A stretch of DNA of 64,000 bases from the human T2T-CHM13v2.0 reference genome, Homo sapiens: NCBI RefSeq assembly GCF_009914755.1, contig NC_060946.1, one strand, 5' to 3'. Positions 1,294 through 17,868 of the stretch are shown here, piece after piece; position 1 is the stretch's first letter, and each line of letters starts with the position of its first letter. The notes beneath the pieces were generated by a model. It saw nothing but the letters and a program-made list of their open reading frames with translations, was not told the origin of the DNA and did no database searches. The position numbers were made by a program, and so were the translations under genes.

Positions 1294-2160
<867 letters not shown>

Positions 2161-2945
2161 ATGTTTCCCTGTGTGATTGTATCATGAATTGCAAGTGTTT
2201 CCATAAACACTAGCAAATGTGTAGATGTCTTTCCTTGTGTAGCGGACCTGTAGCCGGGAAAGGTCACACGACATCCCTCTGGAGCCAGAAAACTCAGCTA
2301 AACCTCACAGGAGAGGAACCTAAATGCAGACCCCACCCTCACTCACAGAGCCCCGCCCACTCTCACTCACAGAGCCCCGGGCGCTGATTGGAAGGGACAG
2401 GCCCAGCAGTAAGAGGACAGCCAGCAGCCAGTCTCCCTGTTGGAAAGGAACCACACACGTGCAGTCAGGGGCCCTCGGGAGCAGCCCTGTGTCCACCCCT
2501 TCCTGAGTCCACCTCCTAGAGAGGGAGCCCAGGGAAGGCCATGGCTGAGACCCAGGACAGGCCCAGTCAGGGGAAGGAGCCCAGGGAGCGGGCAGGTGTC
2601 CAGGCTGGGCCCAGAGAGAGGGCTGGGAAGAGGAGCAGCCCAGGAGGCAGAGCCCAGCCACAGAGGGGAGGGGAGCTGAGTCCCAGGGACAGGAGGCTCC
2701 AGAGGCAGAGACGGAGCCCAGGGCTAGGGCGGCAGGTGTCAGGGCTGTGGCTTCAGCTTGGTGTCTGTCCCGGGTGTTCTGCATTGGTTCCCGACTCTGG
2801 GATGTGTTATTTATGTGCCTGATTACAGCAGGTGGCTCCCACCTCACGATTTCTGGAAAGTCCTCAGAAGCTGCGTATAAGACCAAGAAGGGGCCTCACA
2901 CGCAGCTGCTCCTGGGCAGAAACGACTCACTGTTTCCCTGGCCTA

Positions 2946-3108
2946 GACACACACAACACGCACACACAATACTCGCACTACACACAACACACACACAACA
3001 CACACAATACTCACACGACACACAATACACACATACAAGACACACAAAAACACACATGCACGTACACAACACACACAACACACGTGCACACACACACACA
3101 CACACACA
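2946..3108. repeat. Degenerate (CA)n microsatellite
   Basis: CA-rich run ending in pure (CA)n. Confidence 0.95.
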
Positions 3109-4349
3109 GTGACAGAGACTTGACAATAAGAAACCTCCTCCAGGTGCCCCAGAGCTCTCCTGGGATGGGAACTGGACACAGCCCCATGACACTGCTGAGA
3201 CCTGGGCTGGGAACTGAGAGCCTGTGGTCCCTCTGGGCTGTAGGGAGGCGGGCCCCCACAGTGGTGGCAGAGCCGGGACCCCGGACACAGCAGCATGGAC
3301 TCCAAACCCAAGCGGAACCTCCATTCTGGTCCCAGGCTGCACAGCCCAGCACCTGCCCAGGGTCCCTCTGCCCTGCCTTCTCCCTCAATAGTCTGGACCC
3401 CAGCTGCGTGCCTGCCTTGTCCCCCCCTTACAGGGGACCAGGGTGAATCTCAGGTGAAGCCTGCACCTGTGAAGGAGGCCATTCTCCCTGCTCCCATCCC
3501 TGCCACCCACATGGGGAACCAGCTCCTTCTTGTCCCCGGGGACTTTTCCTGGGCTCTGGTGGAAACTCCAGCGGGATATGGGGTCTTACATTTTCCCTCA
3601 ATGTTGCAGAGGCTGAAATGGGGGCGGGGCTGTCACTCCCCAGGAGCTGACCCCTGTCACCTGTGCTTAGAAGTGTCTCCGGGAGGCACAGTGTTTTATC
3701 AGTGTTATCTACAAGCATTTTACAGTGTAGTTTGTTTTTTTTGTTGTTGTTTGTTTTTGTTTTTTTTGAGACAGAGTCTCGCTGTGTCACCCAGGCTGGA
3801 GTGCAGTGGCGCGATCTCAGCTCACTGAAACCTCCGCCTCGCAAGTTCCAGGATTCTCCTGCCTCCACCTCTCGAGTAGCTAGGATTATAGGTGTGCACC
3901 ACCACACCCAGCTAATTTTTGTAGTTTTAGTAAAGATGGGGTTTCACCACTTTGGTCCAGGATGGTCTCAAATTCCTGACCTCAAGCGATCTGCCCGCCT
4001 GACGTCCCAAAGTGCTTGGATTACAGGCGTTAGCCACCGTGCCCAGCCGTGAGTGCTAGTTTTAGATCGGATCCCAGGCCCCAGGCTGTGTCTGTCATGG
4101 GCAATCATGATGAACTTTTGTTGCGCTGTGCTCTGGGAAAAGCTGGACATTTTGCCACCCACTCCACTCCACTCCACGTAGCAAACAAAACAAACCCATC
4201 AGGATCCCAGCATGGAGGGCCATGCAGTCTAATGATGGTTGGACAGACTGGCAGAGGCAGCCCCGAGCTGTTCCTGGGTAAGACCAAGGGAATAAGACCA
4301 TGATTCCGGTCAGTTCTTGGTGAATGTCATCCCCCTACCCCACCCTCAG

Positions 4350-4486
4350 AACAAATACAGATTTTCAAAATCTACCACTTTTTTCTTTCAAATTTTCTAC
4401 CCATGGAAGAATGAATGACCATCCGGAGACAGCAGGGAAGGTTATTGCTTAATCAAGATGCTGGTGTGTTTCAGGGAGCTGGCCAG
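4350..4486 (+). pseudogene. Probable decayed first domain-coding exon of the Z2 APOBEC3 relic
   Basis: C-rich tract then cag|A. Fragments TTFFFQ and TIRRQQGRLLLNQDAGVFQG resemble A3C TFYFQF and A3B/D VKIKRGRSNLLWDTGVFRGQ. Frameshifted, and the donor is unclear. Confidence 0.45.
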
Positions 4487-5613
4487 GGTGGAGTAGGCTT
4501 GTGGCCACGTTCCCTGGGTGGGAAGACTGAGATGGAGGTGGGCGTGGTCCAGGGACTGTCAGGAGCAGGGCTGGGGGAGACGACCTGGCACAGGGCCGTG
4601 CCTGCACACAGAGCAACAACGCCCACCATCAGGTCTGCCCTGTGCCAATCAGAAAATTCTGGACAGAGACTGTGACCCTCTGTGTCACTCTGGGGCAGGG
4701 GGTAATGGTTCCACACACTTCTATGGGGACCTGGAGAGTGGAGACCAGAGCACTGGTGGGCAGGCAGGCGAGCCTGGGTCTAAGAGCCCACTGTGCCTGC
4801 CACTGTCCCGTACCTCGGCACGTCACCTCCCCTGAAACCTCTCTTTACTCATCTGTAAAGTGGGGGCAATTATACCTCCCTCTCAACTGTGCACTTGGAG
4901 GGCAGTGAGGGCTGGATTTGGGACAGACCTGGTACGCACCAGGCGTTGGGCAAGTCTGAGTCTCCTCCTCTCCCTGAGTCAAGCTGCCTGACGTGATGGC
5001 AGTCTTCCTGCCCACAAGTTCTGGTCCAGCCCCTCCACCCAGGAAGCCCTCGGGGAGGTGATGCCACCGGCAGCGCTGTGGTTTTGGCACCCACAGGCAT
5101 AGGATGGGCTGCCGTGGAAGGTGCCTGCTGTCCCTCAGGGTCTGTACCTCAGCCACCCTCCAGGGTGGGGCCCTATCCTCCTCCCACTGCCTTCTCCGGC
5201 CCTCACCACCCCGGGCAGGCACTGCTTCCCAGAGAGCCACCCGGGTCAGGAGTAAAGTGGCCTCTGTGGTCAAAGTCTGAAAAAGTTGCCCCCACACCTG
5301 CCTAACGGTGCACAGGGCTTTCTGGGGGGGTAGGGAGGAGGCAGGCAAGACTCTGGCACCTTTTCTGAGTCACATCCCTTCTACCGGGGCCCTGAGCCTG
5401 CAGGACGGAAGGATGTGGCCTTGCCTGTCAGAGGGTTCTGAGAACACGGAAGGCTCCTGAGTCCTCGAAGGGCATCCTCAGTGGGAGAGTGGCCCTGAGC
5501 AGAGAGGAGCGTAAGGGGCAAGGCACACCCCTTGAGAGGTCGGTGTCAGCAGCAAGCCCGTTTGCCTGTAGACATCTGTCTCCACTCTTTATTTATACAT
5601 ATTTTTTGAGTAA

Positions 5614-5721
<108 letters not shown>

Positions 5722-5757
5722 TGAGACTTCAGGCGTGCGTCACCACACCCAGCTAAT

Positions 5758-5794
<37 letters not shown>

Positions 5795-5942
5795 TGTTTA
5801 GTAGGGATGGGGTTTTTCCATGTTGCCCCAGCTGGTCTTGAACTTCTAGGCTCAGGCAATCCTCCTGCCTCAGCCTCCCGAGGTGCTGGGATCACAGGTG
5901 TGAGCCGCCACTGGCAGGCATCTCCTCAACTTGACATTGCAG

Positions 5943-6214
5943 TGAGAAAGGGCAAAAGTAGCCGGTCTCACAGAGCAGACATGTGCTTCCCGTCCTGACC
6001 TGCAACGTGCTGCCTCCTTACAAGTGCTACCAGATCACCTGGTTCATATCCCGGAGCCCCAGCCCGGACCATGTGGTGAAAGTGGCCGAGTACAACAAAG
6101 TGAAGCTGAGCATCTTCATTGCCCGCCTCTACCACGACTGTGACCCGGGATTCCAGCACGGGCTTCGCAGACTGCAGGACACAGAGGCACGCGTGCACAT
6201 CATGTCTTCTAAGG
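5943..6214 (+). pseudogene. Z2-type APOBEC3 pseudo-exon (zinc-binding exon)
   Basis: HRADMCFPS* then a frameshift to CNVLPPYKCYQITWFISRSPSPDHVVKVAE----YNKVKLSIFIARLYHDCDPGFQHGLRRLQDTEARVHIMSSK. Aligns with A3B/D/F N-terminal domain [41 protein letters not shown]...ARLYY...ARVTIM. Phase-1 donor AAGG|gtgaga. The 5' boundary is approximate. Confidence 0.9.
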
Positions 6215-6425
6215 GTGAGAGGTTGGGGCCTGAGGGGTGTGTGTGGGGGAGGGACAGCATGAGGGGCAGGGGAGTCTGGGATGCCATTGGGACGATGTCC
6301 CAGGAGAGCCTGCAGGGACTGAGCCAGCACTGACAGCCAGGAGATCACACCTAGGAGGGGCAGGCCCAGGGTCAGGGGAGAGAGGTCTGCCGGGCCTGAC
6401 TTCTTTCTCCCCTCTTTTATCTCAG

Positions 6426-6530
6426 AATTTGAACACTGTTGAGAAGACTGTGTACAAGAGAGATGTGCCATGTCAGCCTTGCAAGGGACAGCGTGAAAAC
6501 TACCCATCTCCGGTCACCAAGTTGCAGGGT
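6426..6530 (+). pseudogene. Z2-type APOBEC3 pseudo-exon (domain-terminal exon)
   Basis: Pyrimidine tract then ctcag|AA TTT GAA CAC TGT TGA (EFEHC*), frameshifting to VYKRDVPCQPCKGQRENYPSPVTKLQ. Homologous to the EF.CW..FV....PF.PW.GL..N exon; compare A3G exon 7 in this window. Confidence 0.85.
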
Positions 6531-6892
6531 AGCCTCACAGCTGATGCCCTCGCTCCTCTCGGCTCCTGCTCAGCCTCCTGATGCCTTCCCTCTGTCCTGG
6601 ATCAGATTCACCCCTGCCTGGGCCTTCTGAGCTGCTCCTGCCCTGAGTACCACCCCTCAGTGCCCCCCACCTCACTGCCTCTTCCCCACTTTCCTGACCC
6701 TGCCTGTGAGAGGCTGCTTTCTGCCTCCATAGCAACCTCTATCCACCCCCCAGTCTCCTTCCTCCCATCCTGGGGGCCCCTAGCCTGGCTCCTTCCATCT
6801 CCTCATCATACCTAAATCTTGTCATTGAACTGATATAAATAGGTAGTAGAAATATACATAAGTGTGAAAGTTAAGTTTTGAGAAACACCTTT

Positions 6893-11409
<4,517 letters not shown>

Positions 11410-11630
11410 TTTGTTCTTTTGTAAACTATACCTGGGGAGGGAGTTGAGTCTGGCTGTACCTGGAGAGGGAATTGGGGGTGGGAGGATGGGAGGTGAGCCA
11501 CCTCCATCAGACTTCCCCTGCCAAGCCCGAGGAAATAGAGAAAGAAAGGAGCCTGAGGGATCTGAAGCACCCCAGGGCCCTCCCACTCCAGTCCCACAAA
11601 AGGAAGAGGGTGGAGCCACCCTCATCAAGC

Positions 11631-11700
11631 AGTGACTTTTTGTGACTTTTGGGAGAGCTGACCTTTTGTGACTTTTGGGAGAGCTGCCAAAAGTGAAACT
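11631..11700 (+). promoter_or_regulatory. APOBEC3H: APOBEC3H promoter/TSS region with a 26-bp tandem duplication and an IRF/ISRE-like element (AAAAGTGAAACT, 11689-11700)
   Basis: Motif matches the IRF consensus AAANNGAAA and lies in the upstream part of non-coding exon 1. Confidence 0.7.
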
Positions 11701-15655: not shown

Positions 15656-15923
15656 AAAAAGTGCCATGCAGAAATTTGCTTTATTAACGAGATCAAGTCC
15701 ATGGGACTGGACGAAACGCAGTGCTACCAAGTCACCTGTTACCTCACGTGGAGCCCCTGCTCCTCCTGTGCCTGGGAGCTGGTTGACTTCATCAAGGCTC
15801 ACGACCATCTGAACCTGCGCATCTTCGCCTCCCGCCTGTACTACCACTGGTGCAAGCCCCAGCAGGACGGGCTGCGGCTTCTGTGTGGATCCCAGGTCCC
15901 GGTGGAGGTCATGGGCTTCCCAG
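15656..15923 (+). CDS. APOBEC3H: APOBEC3H exon 3 (Z3 zinc motif HAE...TWSPCSSC)
   Basis: cccag|AAA AAG TGC CAT GCA GAA; R105 CGC at 15818; D121 GAC at 15866; CCAG|gtagga donor. Confidence 0.98.

Positions 15924-16274: not shown

Positions 16275-17868
<1,594 letters not shown>

What the first reader, a model, noticed from the sequence alone, without database searches (positions are those of the whole stretch)
5943..6530. Fossil additional APOBEC3 unit: an intron-containing Z2 deaminase relic between APOBEC3G and APOBEC3H
Seen: two consecutive pseudo-exons separated by a 211-bp intron with an intact GT donor (6215) and AG acceptor (6425), in the same phase-1 arrangement as A3G exons 6/7. The central 71 codons (6001-6213) are stop-free. 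All catalytic residues are destroyed: HAE to RAD, SWxPCxxC to SRSPSPDH, two Trp codons to TGA (5996, 6440), two frameshifts and a 4-codon deletion. Knowledge: LPPYKCYQITWF is Z2-like (A3B/D/F N-terminal domain [12 protein letters not shown]), and rodents, artiodactyls and cats have a Z2 directly upstream of Z3, expressed as Z2-Z3 proteins. Inference: this is the dead syntenic Z2 partner of A3H rather than a retrocopy. Its loop-7 region (RLYHDCDPGFQHGLRRL) differs from the human Z2 domains I recall, suggesting an old independent lineage that could be reconstructed. I cannot tell whether it has been described before.
Basis: partly seen in the sequence, partly recalled or inferred. Interest (0 to 1): 0.9.

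Follow-up and report, generated by a model that had tools for sequence, protein, structure and literature searches.

The report
Dead APOBEC3 Z2 domain beside APOBEC3H
Between the antiviral genes APOBEC3G and APOBEC3H lies the decayed, 5'-truncated remnant of an extra APOBEC3 deaminase domain that still keeps its intron; it appears to be a very old copy sitting where other mammals keep their working Z2 gene.

Summary
Window 5972-6214 and 6426-~6537 are two decayed exons of an APOBEC3 Z2 deaminase domain, separated by a homologous 211-nt GT..AG intron in phase 1.

- **Not a retrocopy.** Collinear DNA homology to all seven living human Z2 units runs through exon, intron, exon and 3' flank to about 7190.
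- **Dead.** HAE reads RAD, both zinc cysteines are lost, and there are two TGA stops, two frameshifts and a 12-nt deletion.
- **5'-truncated.** No exon 1 or exon 2 relic exists.
- **Old.** Its noncoding divergence from every human Z2 (K 0.36-0.53) matches the deepest living Z2 split, against 0.08 for the A3D/A3F duplicates. It nests in no living subgroup.
- **Long dead.** Its exons changed at the noncoding rate. Key lesions are shared with gibbon and unnamed primate contigs.
- **Position.** It lies 9.7 kb upstream of the A3H Z3 exon. The functional Z2 lies 6.7-10.0 kb upstream of Z3 in six of six non-primates read.
- **Annotation.** RefSeq calls it only a lncRNA. Two A3 domain catalogues omit it.

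The "ancestral partner of A3H" reading is plausible but unproven.

The parts
5972..6214 (+). Relic of the zinc-motif exon of an A3 Z2 domain, equivalent to exon 3 of A3C or exon 3/6 of the double-domain genes. Lesions: RAD for HAE at 5972-5980; TGA for Trp at 5996-5998; a net 4-nt loss after 5998 (frameshift); SRSPSPDH at 6049-6072 (Trp to Arg, Cys to Ser, Cys to His); a 12-nt deletion between 6091 and 6092. Weak homology may reach back to about 5958.
6215..6425 (+). Retained intron of 211 nt, GT..AG, phase 1. It aligns along its length with the corresponding intron of all 7 human Z2 units.
   Evidence: K2P 0.26-0.33 to the six A3B/C/D/F units, 0.55 to A3G-N
6426..6537 (+). Relic of the following exon (116 nt in the paralogues). 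Lesions: TGA for Trp at 6440-6442; a 2-nt deletion between 6448 and 6449 (frameshift). The ancestral donor or stop site was removed by a 17-nt deletion between 6537 and 6538. The lncRNA uses a new donor at 6529-6530.
6538..7190 (+). 3' flank of the unit. It is collinear with the sequence downstream of the paralogous exon in all Z2 units to 6821. From 6851 to 7150-7188 it matches only the terminal-type units (A3C, A3D-C, A3F-C 3'UTR/flank; 71-77% identity).
5590..5922 (-). Antisense Alu abutting the 5' edge of the relic. Upstream of it (4054-5581) the sequence is single-copy in the genome and unrelated to any A3 gene region fetched. The unit's exons 1-2 and intron 2 are missing.
5387..7269 (+). 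RefSeq predicted lncRNA LOC101927202. Its exons 2 and 3 (5943-6214, 6426-6528) are the relic exons and it uses the ancestral intron. Exon 1 (5387-5538) has no similarity to A3 first exons. The last exon (6948-7269) lies partly (6948 to about 7190) in the homologous 3' flank.
   Evidence: Hub annotation. A spliced MSSK|EFEHC contig-derived peptide from another, unnamed primate record (P0067).

Best explanation
This is a 5'-truncated, unprocessed pseudogene of one APOBEC3 Z2 deaminase-domain unit. It keeps most of the zinc-motif exon, its phase-1 intron, the next exon and about 650 nt of 3' flank.

**What is shown**
- It arose by genomic (DNA-level) duplication within the A3 array, not by retrocopying.
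- It is a fourth human Z2 lineage, as deep as the split between the A3B/D/F N-terminal type and the A3C/A3D-C/A3F-C type.
- It cannot make a deaminase: the catalytic Glu, the zinc His and both zinc Cys are gone, and the frame is broken four times.
- Two lesions, the second zinc Cys to His and the change of the first zinc Cys, are already present in gibbon. The frameshift after HAE is shared with three unnamed primate contigs.

**What is inferred**
- It lost its 5' exons and its function early, because its exons have since changed at the noncoding rate.
- It is the leftover of the Z2 that stood directly upstream of Z3 (A3H) in the ancestral Z1-Z2-Z3 array. That makes it the physical trace of one of the early 'single-domain deletions' that models of the locus require.

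Today it acts only as raw material. Its ancestral intron and some new splice sites are used by a predicted polyadenylated lncRNA, LOC101927202.
For: - **Family.** Pfam gave 10 of 10 AID/APOBEC families. The PDB search gave 51 of 51 APOBEC/AID chains.
- **Z2 class, protein scores.** Single Z2 domains score 42.8-48.9 bits, against A3H 32.0 and A3A 31.1. Within full-length A3G, the Z2 half scores 31-32 bits against 14-18 for the Z1 half. Profiles built here from 63 Z2, 19 Z1 and 11 Z3 domains favour Z2 in 6 of 6 relic-lineage sequences, for example human 91.4 / 66.2 / 48.7 bits.
- **Z2 class, DNA.** Long blastn alignments (5975 to about 6820-6832) were found with A3C, A3D-N, A3D-C, A3F-N and A3F-C, a shorter one (to 6457) with A3B-N, and a split one with A3G-N. 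No Z1 or Z3 unit gave one.
- **Unprocessed.** Exon, intron, exon and flank are collinear with the paralogues.
- **Age.** Noncoding K2P is 0.36-0.38 to the C-type and 0.40-0.42 to A3F-N/A3D-N. N-type against C-type is 0.40-0.45 (0.51-0.57 with A3B-N). A3D/A3F duplicates are 0.08.
- **Trees.** The N-type clade (100/99) and the C-type clade (100/96) exclude the relic. The relic plus five orthologue pieces form a 100/100 clade.
- **Neutral decay.** Lineage-specific changes are 14/72, 16/70 and 22/78 at codon positions 1, 2 and 3, against 44/224 in noncoding DNA. Living lineages show 24/192 (N) and 22/190 (C) in coding DNA, against 39/219 and 32/212 in noncoding DNA.
- **Truncation.** The exon-2 profile scores at most 1.8 bits in 2160-5960. 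Forty shuffles gave a median of 2.9 and a maximum of 7.0. The A3C control scored 67.1. Searches also found nothing.
- **Shared lesions.**
- **Position.** The relic is 9.7 kb from the A3H Z3 exon on the same strand. In 6 of 6 non-primate species read with both domains on one scaffold, the distance is 6.7-10.0 kb.
- **Fit to the published model.** LaRue 2008 needs early single-domain deletions to reach a Z1-Z3 adjacency (section 12 read).
Against: - The protein tree is weak, with only 125 columns. The relic sits beside the N-type at 93/87 (not starred).
- Forcing the relic with the C-type gave a higher likelihood (p-AU 0.795).
- Even forcing it with Z1 was not rejected (lnL 1.1 lower, p-AU 0.479). 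The tree alone therefore does not type it. Z2 typing rests on the profiles and the noncoding homology.
- DNA signals are mosaic. 5975-6091 is nearer the N-type, while 6215-6290 and 6601-6680 are nearer the C-type. The noncoding tree joins the relic with the C-type only as an unrooted split.
- No non-human genome was aligned, so positional orthology with non-primate A3Z2 is unproven.
- Only one orthologue (gibbon) is named.
- The lncRNA is a predicted model, and no RNA-seq data were seen.
Confidence: 0.8

Rival explanations
1. An old Z2 copy, but not the ancestral neighbour of Z3. On this reading a duplicated terminal-type Z2 unit (kin of A3C/A3D-C/A3F-C) was placed between A3G and A3H by a later unequal crossover and then decayed.
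For: The noncoding tree puts the relic on the C-type side of a 100/100 split. Its 3' flank beyond 6851 matches only C-type units. Forcing relic plus C-type is not rejected.
Against: - Tandem unequal crossover keeps the rightmost copy attached to the original Z2-Z3 spacer, and the 9.7 kb spacing fits that of other mammals.
- The split is unrooted. It fits equally well with N-terminal units being the derived group.
- The relic is as far from the C-type (0.36-0.38) as the N-type nearly is (0.40-0.45).
Confidence: 0.25
2. A recent duplicate of an A3B/A3D/A3F N-terminal domain that decayed fast. This is suggested by LPPYKCYQITWF against [12 protein letters not shown].
For: The relic is nearest the N-type in 5975-6091 (0.19-0.22 differences per site, against 0.26-0.35 to the C-type). 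It is sister to the N-type at 93/87 in the protein tree. Best tblastn identity, 50%, is to A3F-N and A3B-N.
Against: - Noncoding divergence from N-type units is 0.40-0.53, against 0.08-0.20 among the N-type units themselves.
- The N-type clade excludes the relic at 100/99.
- The intron start and the flank are more C-like.
- Lesions are shared with gibbon.
Confidence: 0.03
3. A functional non-coding gene. On this reading the relic exons are kept because lncRNA LOC101927202 (or read-through from A3G) regulates A3G or A3H.
For: - A RefSeq model has four spliced exons ending about 12 nt after an AATAAA at about 7253 (hub annotation; sequence).
- The ancestral intron's splice sites are intact.
- A spliced MSSK|EFEHC peptide comes from an unnamed primate contig (P0067).
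- The acceptor at 6024/6025 is used both by a human alternative transcript and by the gibbon model (hub annotation).
Against: - The exons changed at or above the noncoding rate.
- Indels hit the ancestral donor.
- The first exon is unrelated to A3 genes.
- No paper mentions the locus name.
- No expression data were seen.
Confidence: 0.07
4. A processed retrocopy of an A3 mRNA that happened to land in the locus.
For: Processed A3 copies exist on chromosomes 4 and 12 (Ito Dataset S3 rows 569 and 584; A3I in Yang 2020, passages).
Against: A homologous intron is retained, with homologous flanks beyond the exons.
Confidence: 0.01

Closest known systems
Human A3 Z2 domains (A3B-N, A3C, A3D-N/C, A3F-N/C, A3G-N)
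   Same: Same exon-intron-exon layout and phase. Collinear DNA homology covers about 0.85-1.2 kb. Motif skeleton is shared: xAE...SWSPxxxC (W kept in gibbon), RLY, EFxxCW.
   Different: Only 41-50% amino-acid identity. Loop 7 reads YHDCDPGFQHG. All catalytic and zinc residues are lost, there are stops and frameshifts, and exons 1-2 are missing.
The single A3Z2 gene next to A3Z3 in non-primate mammals (seal, fur seal, baiji, camel, elephant, squirrel in Ito 2020 Dataset S3; expressed as Z2-Z3 in several orders according to LaRue 2008 and McDonnell 2021 passages)
   Same: Same order, strand and distance relative to Z3: 6.7-10.0 kb against 9.7 kb here.
   Different: Those genes are intact. Orthology of the spacer DNA was not tested here.
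Processed A3 pseudogenes and retrocopies (A3I on chr4, copy on chr12)
   Same: Dead A3-derived sequences in the human genome.
   Different: Those are intronless, lie outside the locus and are A3G/Z1-like. This one keeps its intron and lies inside the array.
Duplicated, pseudogenized A3Z3 copies of carnivores (Ito 2020)
   Same: Pseudogenized Z-domain copies (A3Z3) catalogued in the same survey.
   Different: Different Z class and different order. Those are catalogued, while this one is absent from the same catalogue.

Membership tests
AID/APOBEC deaminase superfamily | Significant sequence match to family profiles | tested here: met
   PF18782 7.2e-17, PF08210 3.9e-12, PF18771 (APOBEC3) 4.2e-11; 51 of 51 PDB hits are APOBEC/AID.
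APOBEC3 Z2 class | Scores best with Z2 rather than Z1 or Z3 profiles | tested here: met
   6 of 6 relic-lineage sequences favour Z2, 15-25 bits over Z1 and 28-43 over Z3. Classes were assigned by best human hit, and the Z2 set is the largest.
APOBEC3 Z2 class | Class motifs: SW-S/T-PC (not the TWSPC of Z3) and RLY (not the RIY of Z1). The motif definitions are recalled from the LaRue 2009 nomenclature. They were checked against the sequences extracted. | tested here: met
   The relic has ARLYH. It reads ISRSPS in human and ISWSPS in gibbon. Human A3G-C has ARIY and A3H has TWSPC.
APOBEC3 Z2 class | Monophyly with Z2 in a tree | tested here: inconclusive
   One search places it among Z2 domains, but Z1 sequences nest inside Z2 in that tree. 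The AU test does not reject relic plus Z1 (p 0.479).
APOBEC3 Z2 class | Noncoding (intron and flank) homology to Z2 units only | tested here: met
   long alignments with 7 of 7 Z2 units and 0 of 4 Z1/Z3 units.
Active cytidine deaminase | H-x-E and P-C-x2-4-C zinc/catalytic residues in an open frame | tested here: not met
   RAD, SPSPDH, TGA at 5996 and 6440, and two frameshifts.
Unprocessed (duplicated) pseudogene | Retains intron(s) and flanks homologous to the parent gene family, within the array | tested here: met
Processed pseudogene / retrocopy | Intronless, flanks unrelated to the parent | tested here: not met
Positional orthologue of non-primate A3Z2 | Same order, strand and distance relative to Z3 | tested here: met
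   6 of 6 species at 6.7-10.0 kb; human relic at 9.7 kb.
Positional orthologue of non-primate A3Z2 | Orthologous spacer DNA and a tree placing it as the direct heir | not testable with these tools
   No non-human mammalian genome is held. Sequences from the paper's supplement could not be entered.

The most novel reading that the evidence does not exclude
The relic is the founder locus. On this reading it is the direct positional heir of the single ancestral A3Z2 gene that partnered A3Z3, and every working human Z2 domain descends from copies of it. The true human array would then be Z1-Z2-Z1-(Z2)6-Z1-psiZ2-Z3. An intact or less decayed orthologue, a fourth Z2 lineage with its own loop 7, may survive in some non-catarrhine primate, where it would count as an unrecognised A3 gene.
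Probability: 0.3. Interest if true: 0.6.

Novelty: new member of a known kind. Interest (0 to 1): 0.4.

Why it matters
The APOBEC3 array is one of the most studied antiviral loci. Its history is usually modelled from eleven Z domains: Z1-Z2-Z1-(Z2)6-Z1-Z3 in LaRue 2008, and eleven chr22 rows in Ito 2020. A twelfth, dead Z2 exactly between the last Z1 and Z3 has three consequences.

- It gives physical evidence for the ancestral Z1-Z2-Z3 order inside the human genome.
- It turns a postulated clean deletion into a datable partial deletion.
- It adds a deep Z2 lineage as a reference point for rooting the primate Z2 radiation.

It also explains what the 'uncharacterized' lncRNA LOC101927202 is made of, and why a gibbon RefSeq 'A3G' model has 566 residues. 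It does not change what is known about A3 function.

Tried and rejected
**Searches for the missing 5' part**
- tblastn of 63 A3 proteins against 2160-11662 gave only chance-level hits. One example is 3568-3720 at E 0.17-0.023, expected by chance with 63 queries.
- The exon-2 profile search was negative.
- blastn of 2160-5960 against whole A3A/B/C/D/F/G/H gene regions found only Alus and a Z1-flank block.
- 4054-5581 is single-copy in the genome.

**Tree tests**
- AU tests for relic plus A3G-N, relic plus Z3, the three living groups without the relic, and all four groups together did not finish in the time allowed. They are not reported as results.

**Orthologue searches**
- Two 'longer' searches for named orthologues in other species returned only the gibbon model.
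- The 'near' search gave five unnamed ORFs.

**Other ORFs and scans**
- The antisense ORF 5971-6513 and the ORFs 5396-5995 and 6875-7261 have no Pfam match.
- The bacterial-type promoter/terminator scan is irrelevant to a human locus.

**Literature**
- 'LOC101927202' returned 0 papers.
- The phrase searches 'APOBEC3 pseudogene', 'pseudo-APOBEC3' and 'APOBEC3-like pseudogene' had 0 occurrences in the 30 of 99 papers listed. The few 'A3 pseudogene' occurrences were in unrelated plant and surfactant-protein papers.
- The clone names AL022318, CTA-150C2 and RP4-742C19 appear in 11 papers, none about this by title or abstract.
- Münk 2012 has no 'pseudogen', 'remnant' or 'degenerat'.
- Moraes 2022 has none.
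- McDonnell 2021 mentions only carnivore Z3.
- Yang 2020's A3I is the chr4 retrocopy.
- Uriu et al. 2021 (J Virol) is not held and may bear on novelty. The same holds for GENCODE/Ensembl pseudogene tracks and Ito's SI appendix PDF, none of which I could see.

Full report
**Observation.**
- 6001-6213 translates to 71 codons without a stop: CNVLPPYKCYQITWFISRSPSPDHVVKVAEYNKVKLSIFIARLYHDCDPGFQHGLRRLQDTEARVHIMSSK.
- The upstream frame reads ...SHRADMCFPS* with TGA at 5996.
- GT lies at 6215-16 and AG at 6424-25.
- The split codon G|AA is followed by FEHC*, with TGA at 6440. A shifted frame continues ...VYKRDVPCQPCKGQRENYPSPVTKLQG.
- The 71-residue piece hits 10 of 10 AID/APOBEC Pfam families, best 7.2e-17. 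All 51 of 51 matching PDB sequences are APOBEC or AID.

**Z class.**
- In PDB, single Z2 domains score highest: A3F-NTD 48.9 bits, A3B-NTD 48.2, A3F-CTD 44.0, A3C 42.8. A3H scores 32.0 and A3A 31.1. Inside full-length A3G, the Z2 half scores 31-32 bits and the Z1 half 14-18.
- In the T2T genome the peptide finds itself, the seven Z2 exons (41-50% identity), AICDA, A3B-C and A3A. This makes 11 matches.
- Profiles that I built from 63 Z2, 19 Z1 and 11 Z3 domains favour Z2 for the human relic (91.4 / 66.2 / 48.7 bits) and for all five orthologue pieces, 6 of 6 in total.
- Most tellingly, blastn gives alignments running from 5975 through the intron into the 3' flank (to about 6820-6832) with five Z2 units, a shorter one (to 6457) with A3B-N, and a split one with A3G-N. 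No Z1 or Z3 unit gave one.

**Anatomy.** A MAFFT alignment of 5900-7300 with the seven Z2 units is collinear from about 5965 to 6821.
- The intron is homologous along its length.
- From 6851 to 7150-7188, homology continues only with the A3C, A3D-C and A3F-C downstream regions.
- This is therefore a genomic duplicate and not a retrocopy.
- The alignment fixes the lesions: a net 4-nt loss after 5998, a 12-nt loss at 6091/6092, a 2-nt loss at 6448/6449, and a 17-nt loss at 6537/6538. The last one removed the ancestral donor/stop site.
- The lncRNA's donor at 6529 is therefore new.
- Its acceptor at 5942/5943 lies in 43 nt that I could not align, next to an antisense Alu (5590-5922).

**Missing 5' half.** No earlier exon survives.
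- tblastn with 63 A3 proteins over 2160-11662 gave nothing above chance outside the relic.
- blastn against whole A3 gene regions found nothing in 4054-5581. That stretch is single-copy in the genome.
- A profile of 37 exon-2-encoded segments scored at most 1.8 bits. Forty shuffles gave a median of 2.9 and a maximum of 7.0. The true A3C exon 2 scored 67.1.
- An exon of the same age should still be visible, because the relic itself scores about 90 bits. The 5' part was therefore deleted, not merely eroded.

**Age.**
- Noncoding K2P distances (intron plus flank, about 470-500 sites) are 0.36-0.38 to the C-type and 0.40-0.42 to A3F-N/A3D-N. N-type against C-type is 0.40-0.45, and higher with A3B-N. 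The A3D/A3F duplicates are only 0.08.
- DNA trees are star-like for exon plus intron. With the flank included, they give an unrooted split of relic plus C-type against N-type plus A3G-N (100/100).
- The signal along the sequence is mosaic.
- The careful protein tree (74 rows, 125 columns; 30 of 104 rows dropped beforehand, mostly Z1/Z3 and odd rows) gives a 100/100 clade for the relic and its five orthologue pieces, on a long stem (0.70).
- The same tree gives clades that exclude the relic for the N-type (100/99), the C-type (100/96) and A3G-N (100/99). A sister link to the N-type is unstarred at 93/87.
- AU tests show how little the tree resolves. Relic plus C-type is not rejected, and that constrained tree even had the higher likelihood (p 0.795). 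Relic plus Z1 is not rejected either (p 0.479). Four further tests did not finish.
- I therefore claim only a separate, deep Z2 lineage and not a recent A3B/D/F copy.

**Time of death.**
- Changes private to the relic number 14/72, 16/70 and 22/78 at codon positions 1, 2 and 3, against 44/224 in its noncoding DNA. The living N and C lineages show 24/192 and 22/190 in coding DNA, against 39/219 and 32/212 in noncoding DNA.
- No constraint is visible over the relic's whole private branch, so it probably died soon after it arose.
- A 566-residue RefSeq model named APOBEC-3G of Nomascus leucogenys is a read-through that includes the relic. It keeps SWSPSPDH and FLAK. The Cys losses therefore predate the human-gibbon split, while the Trp-to-Arg change and the 12-nt deletion came later.
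- Unnamed contig ORFs P0004, P0014, P0066 and P0067 are further orthologues at 75-90% identity.
- All four that cover the zinc motif (gibbon, P0004, P0066, P0067) share Cys-to-His. P0004, P0066 and P0067 start in the same shifted frame, so the frameshift after HAE is shared.
- P0067 reads MSSK|EFEHC and then stops. This is the spliced junction, and its end is consistent with a stop at the position of the human TGA.

**Position and the literature.**
- In Ito 2020 Dataset S3 I read parts 6, 23 and 24 of 56. Six of six non-primate species with Z2 and Z3 on one scaffold have Z2 6.7-10.0 kb upstream of Z3 on the same strand: Weddell seal, baiji, elephant, ground squirrel, fur seal and Bactrian camel. 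The relic is 9.7 kb upstream of the A3H Z3 exon.
- The same table lists 11 human chr22 domains. None lies between A3G-C (hg19 39482313-565) and A3H (39497238-511), where the relic would fall at about 39.4876 Mb.
- LaRue 2008 (section 12 read) writes the human array as Z1-Z2-Z1-(Z2)6-Z1-Z3. [quoted passage not shown]
- The relic fits such a deletion that was only partial. This link is my inference, and I could not see their Figure 7.
- Searches for prior description found nothing. Passages from five other papers were also negative.
- Uriu 2021 was not available, and I could not see GENCODE. Novelty is therefore likely but not certain.

**Verdict.** This is a real, ordinary-in-kind but overlooked unprocessed pseudogene: a twelfth, dead Z domain in the human A3 array. 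It is of moderate interest for reconstructing the history of the locus.

Noticed in passing
window 2178-3645: The 1.5 kb just downstream of the A3G poly(A) site is about 90% identical to the stretch downstream of A3A. Its first kilobase (to about 3155) is also about 90% identical to the A3B downstream DNA, which was fetched only about 1.4 kb past the A3B gene end. The Z1 duplication or conversion block therefore extends well past the genes. It ends just before an Alu at 3732-4050.
   Followed up: partly
P0003 (RefSeq model, Nomascus leucogenys 'APOBEC-3G', 566 aa): The model is A3G read through into non-A3 exons (human 3240-3338 and 3436-3610) and then into the relic through the internal acceptor at human 6024/6025. 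It is almost certainly a gene-prediction artefact.
   Followed up: partly
P0068 (unnamed contig ORF, 132 aa): An A3C/A3D-C-like zinc exon runs into intron sequence whose last 26 residues are identical to the translation of the relic's intron (human 6255-6333). The units share a 22-nt identical intron stretch at 6250-6271. This is probably an assembly chimera. Gene conversion in that species is not excluded.
   Followed up: no
window 10810-10889 and 11525-11618: Short matches of 72-74% identity. 10810-10889 matches the segment spanning the annotated A3G start. 11525-11618 matches DNA just upstream of the annotated A3C and A3B starts and lies ahead of the A3H start at 11663. This may be a shared promoter element.
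   Followed up: no
window 5971-6513, minus strand: A 181-codon open frame lies antisense to the relic exons and intron. It has no Pfam match and is probably a by-product of the GC-rich sequence.
   Followed up: partly
window 15656-15923, 16275-16399 (A3H exons): The A3H allele in this assembly reads ...NLRIFASRLYYHWCKPQQDGL... and ...RRLDRIK.... From memory, these residues correspond to the stable, active haplotype class. I did not check this.
   Followed up: no
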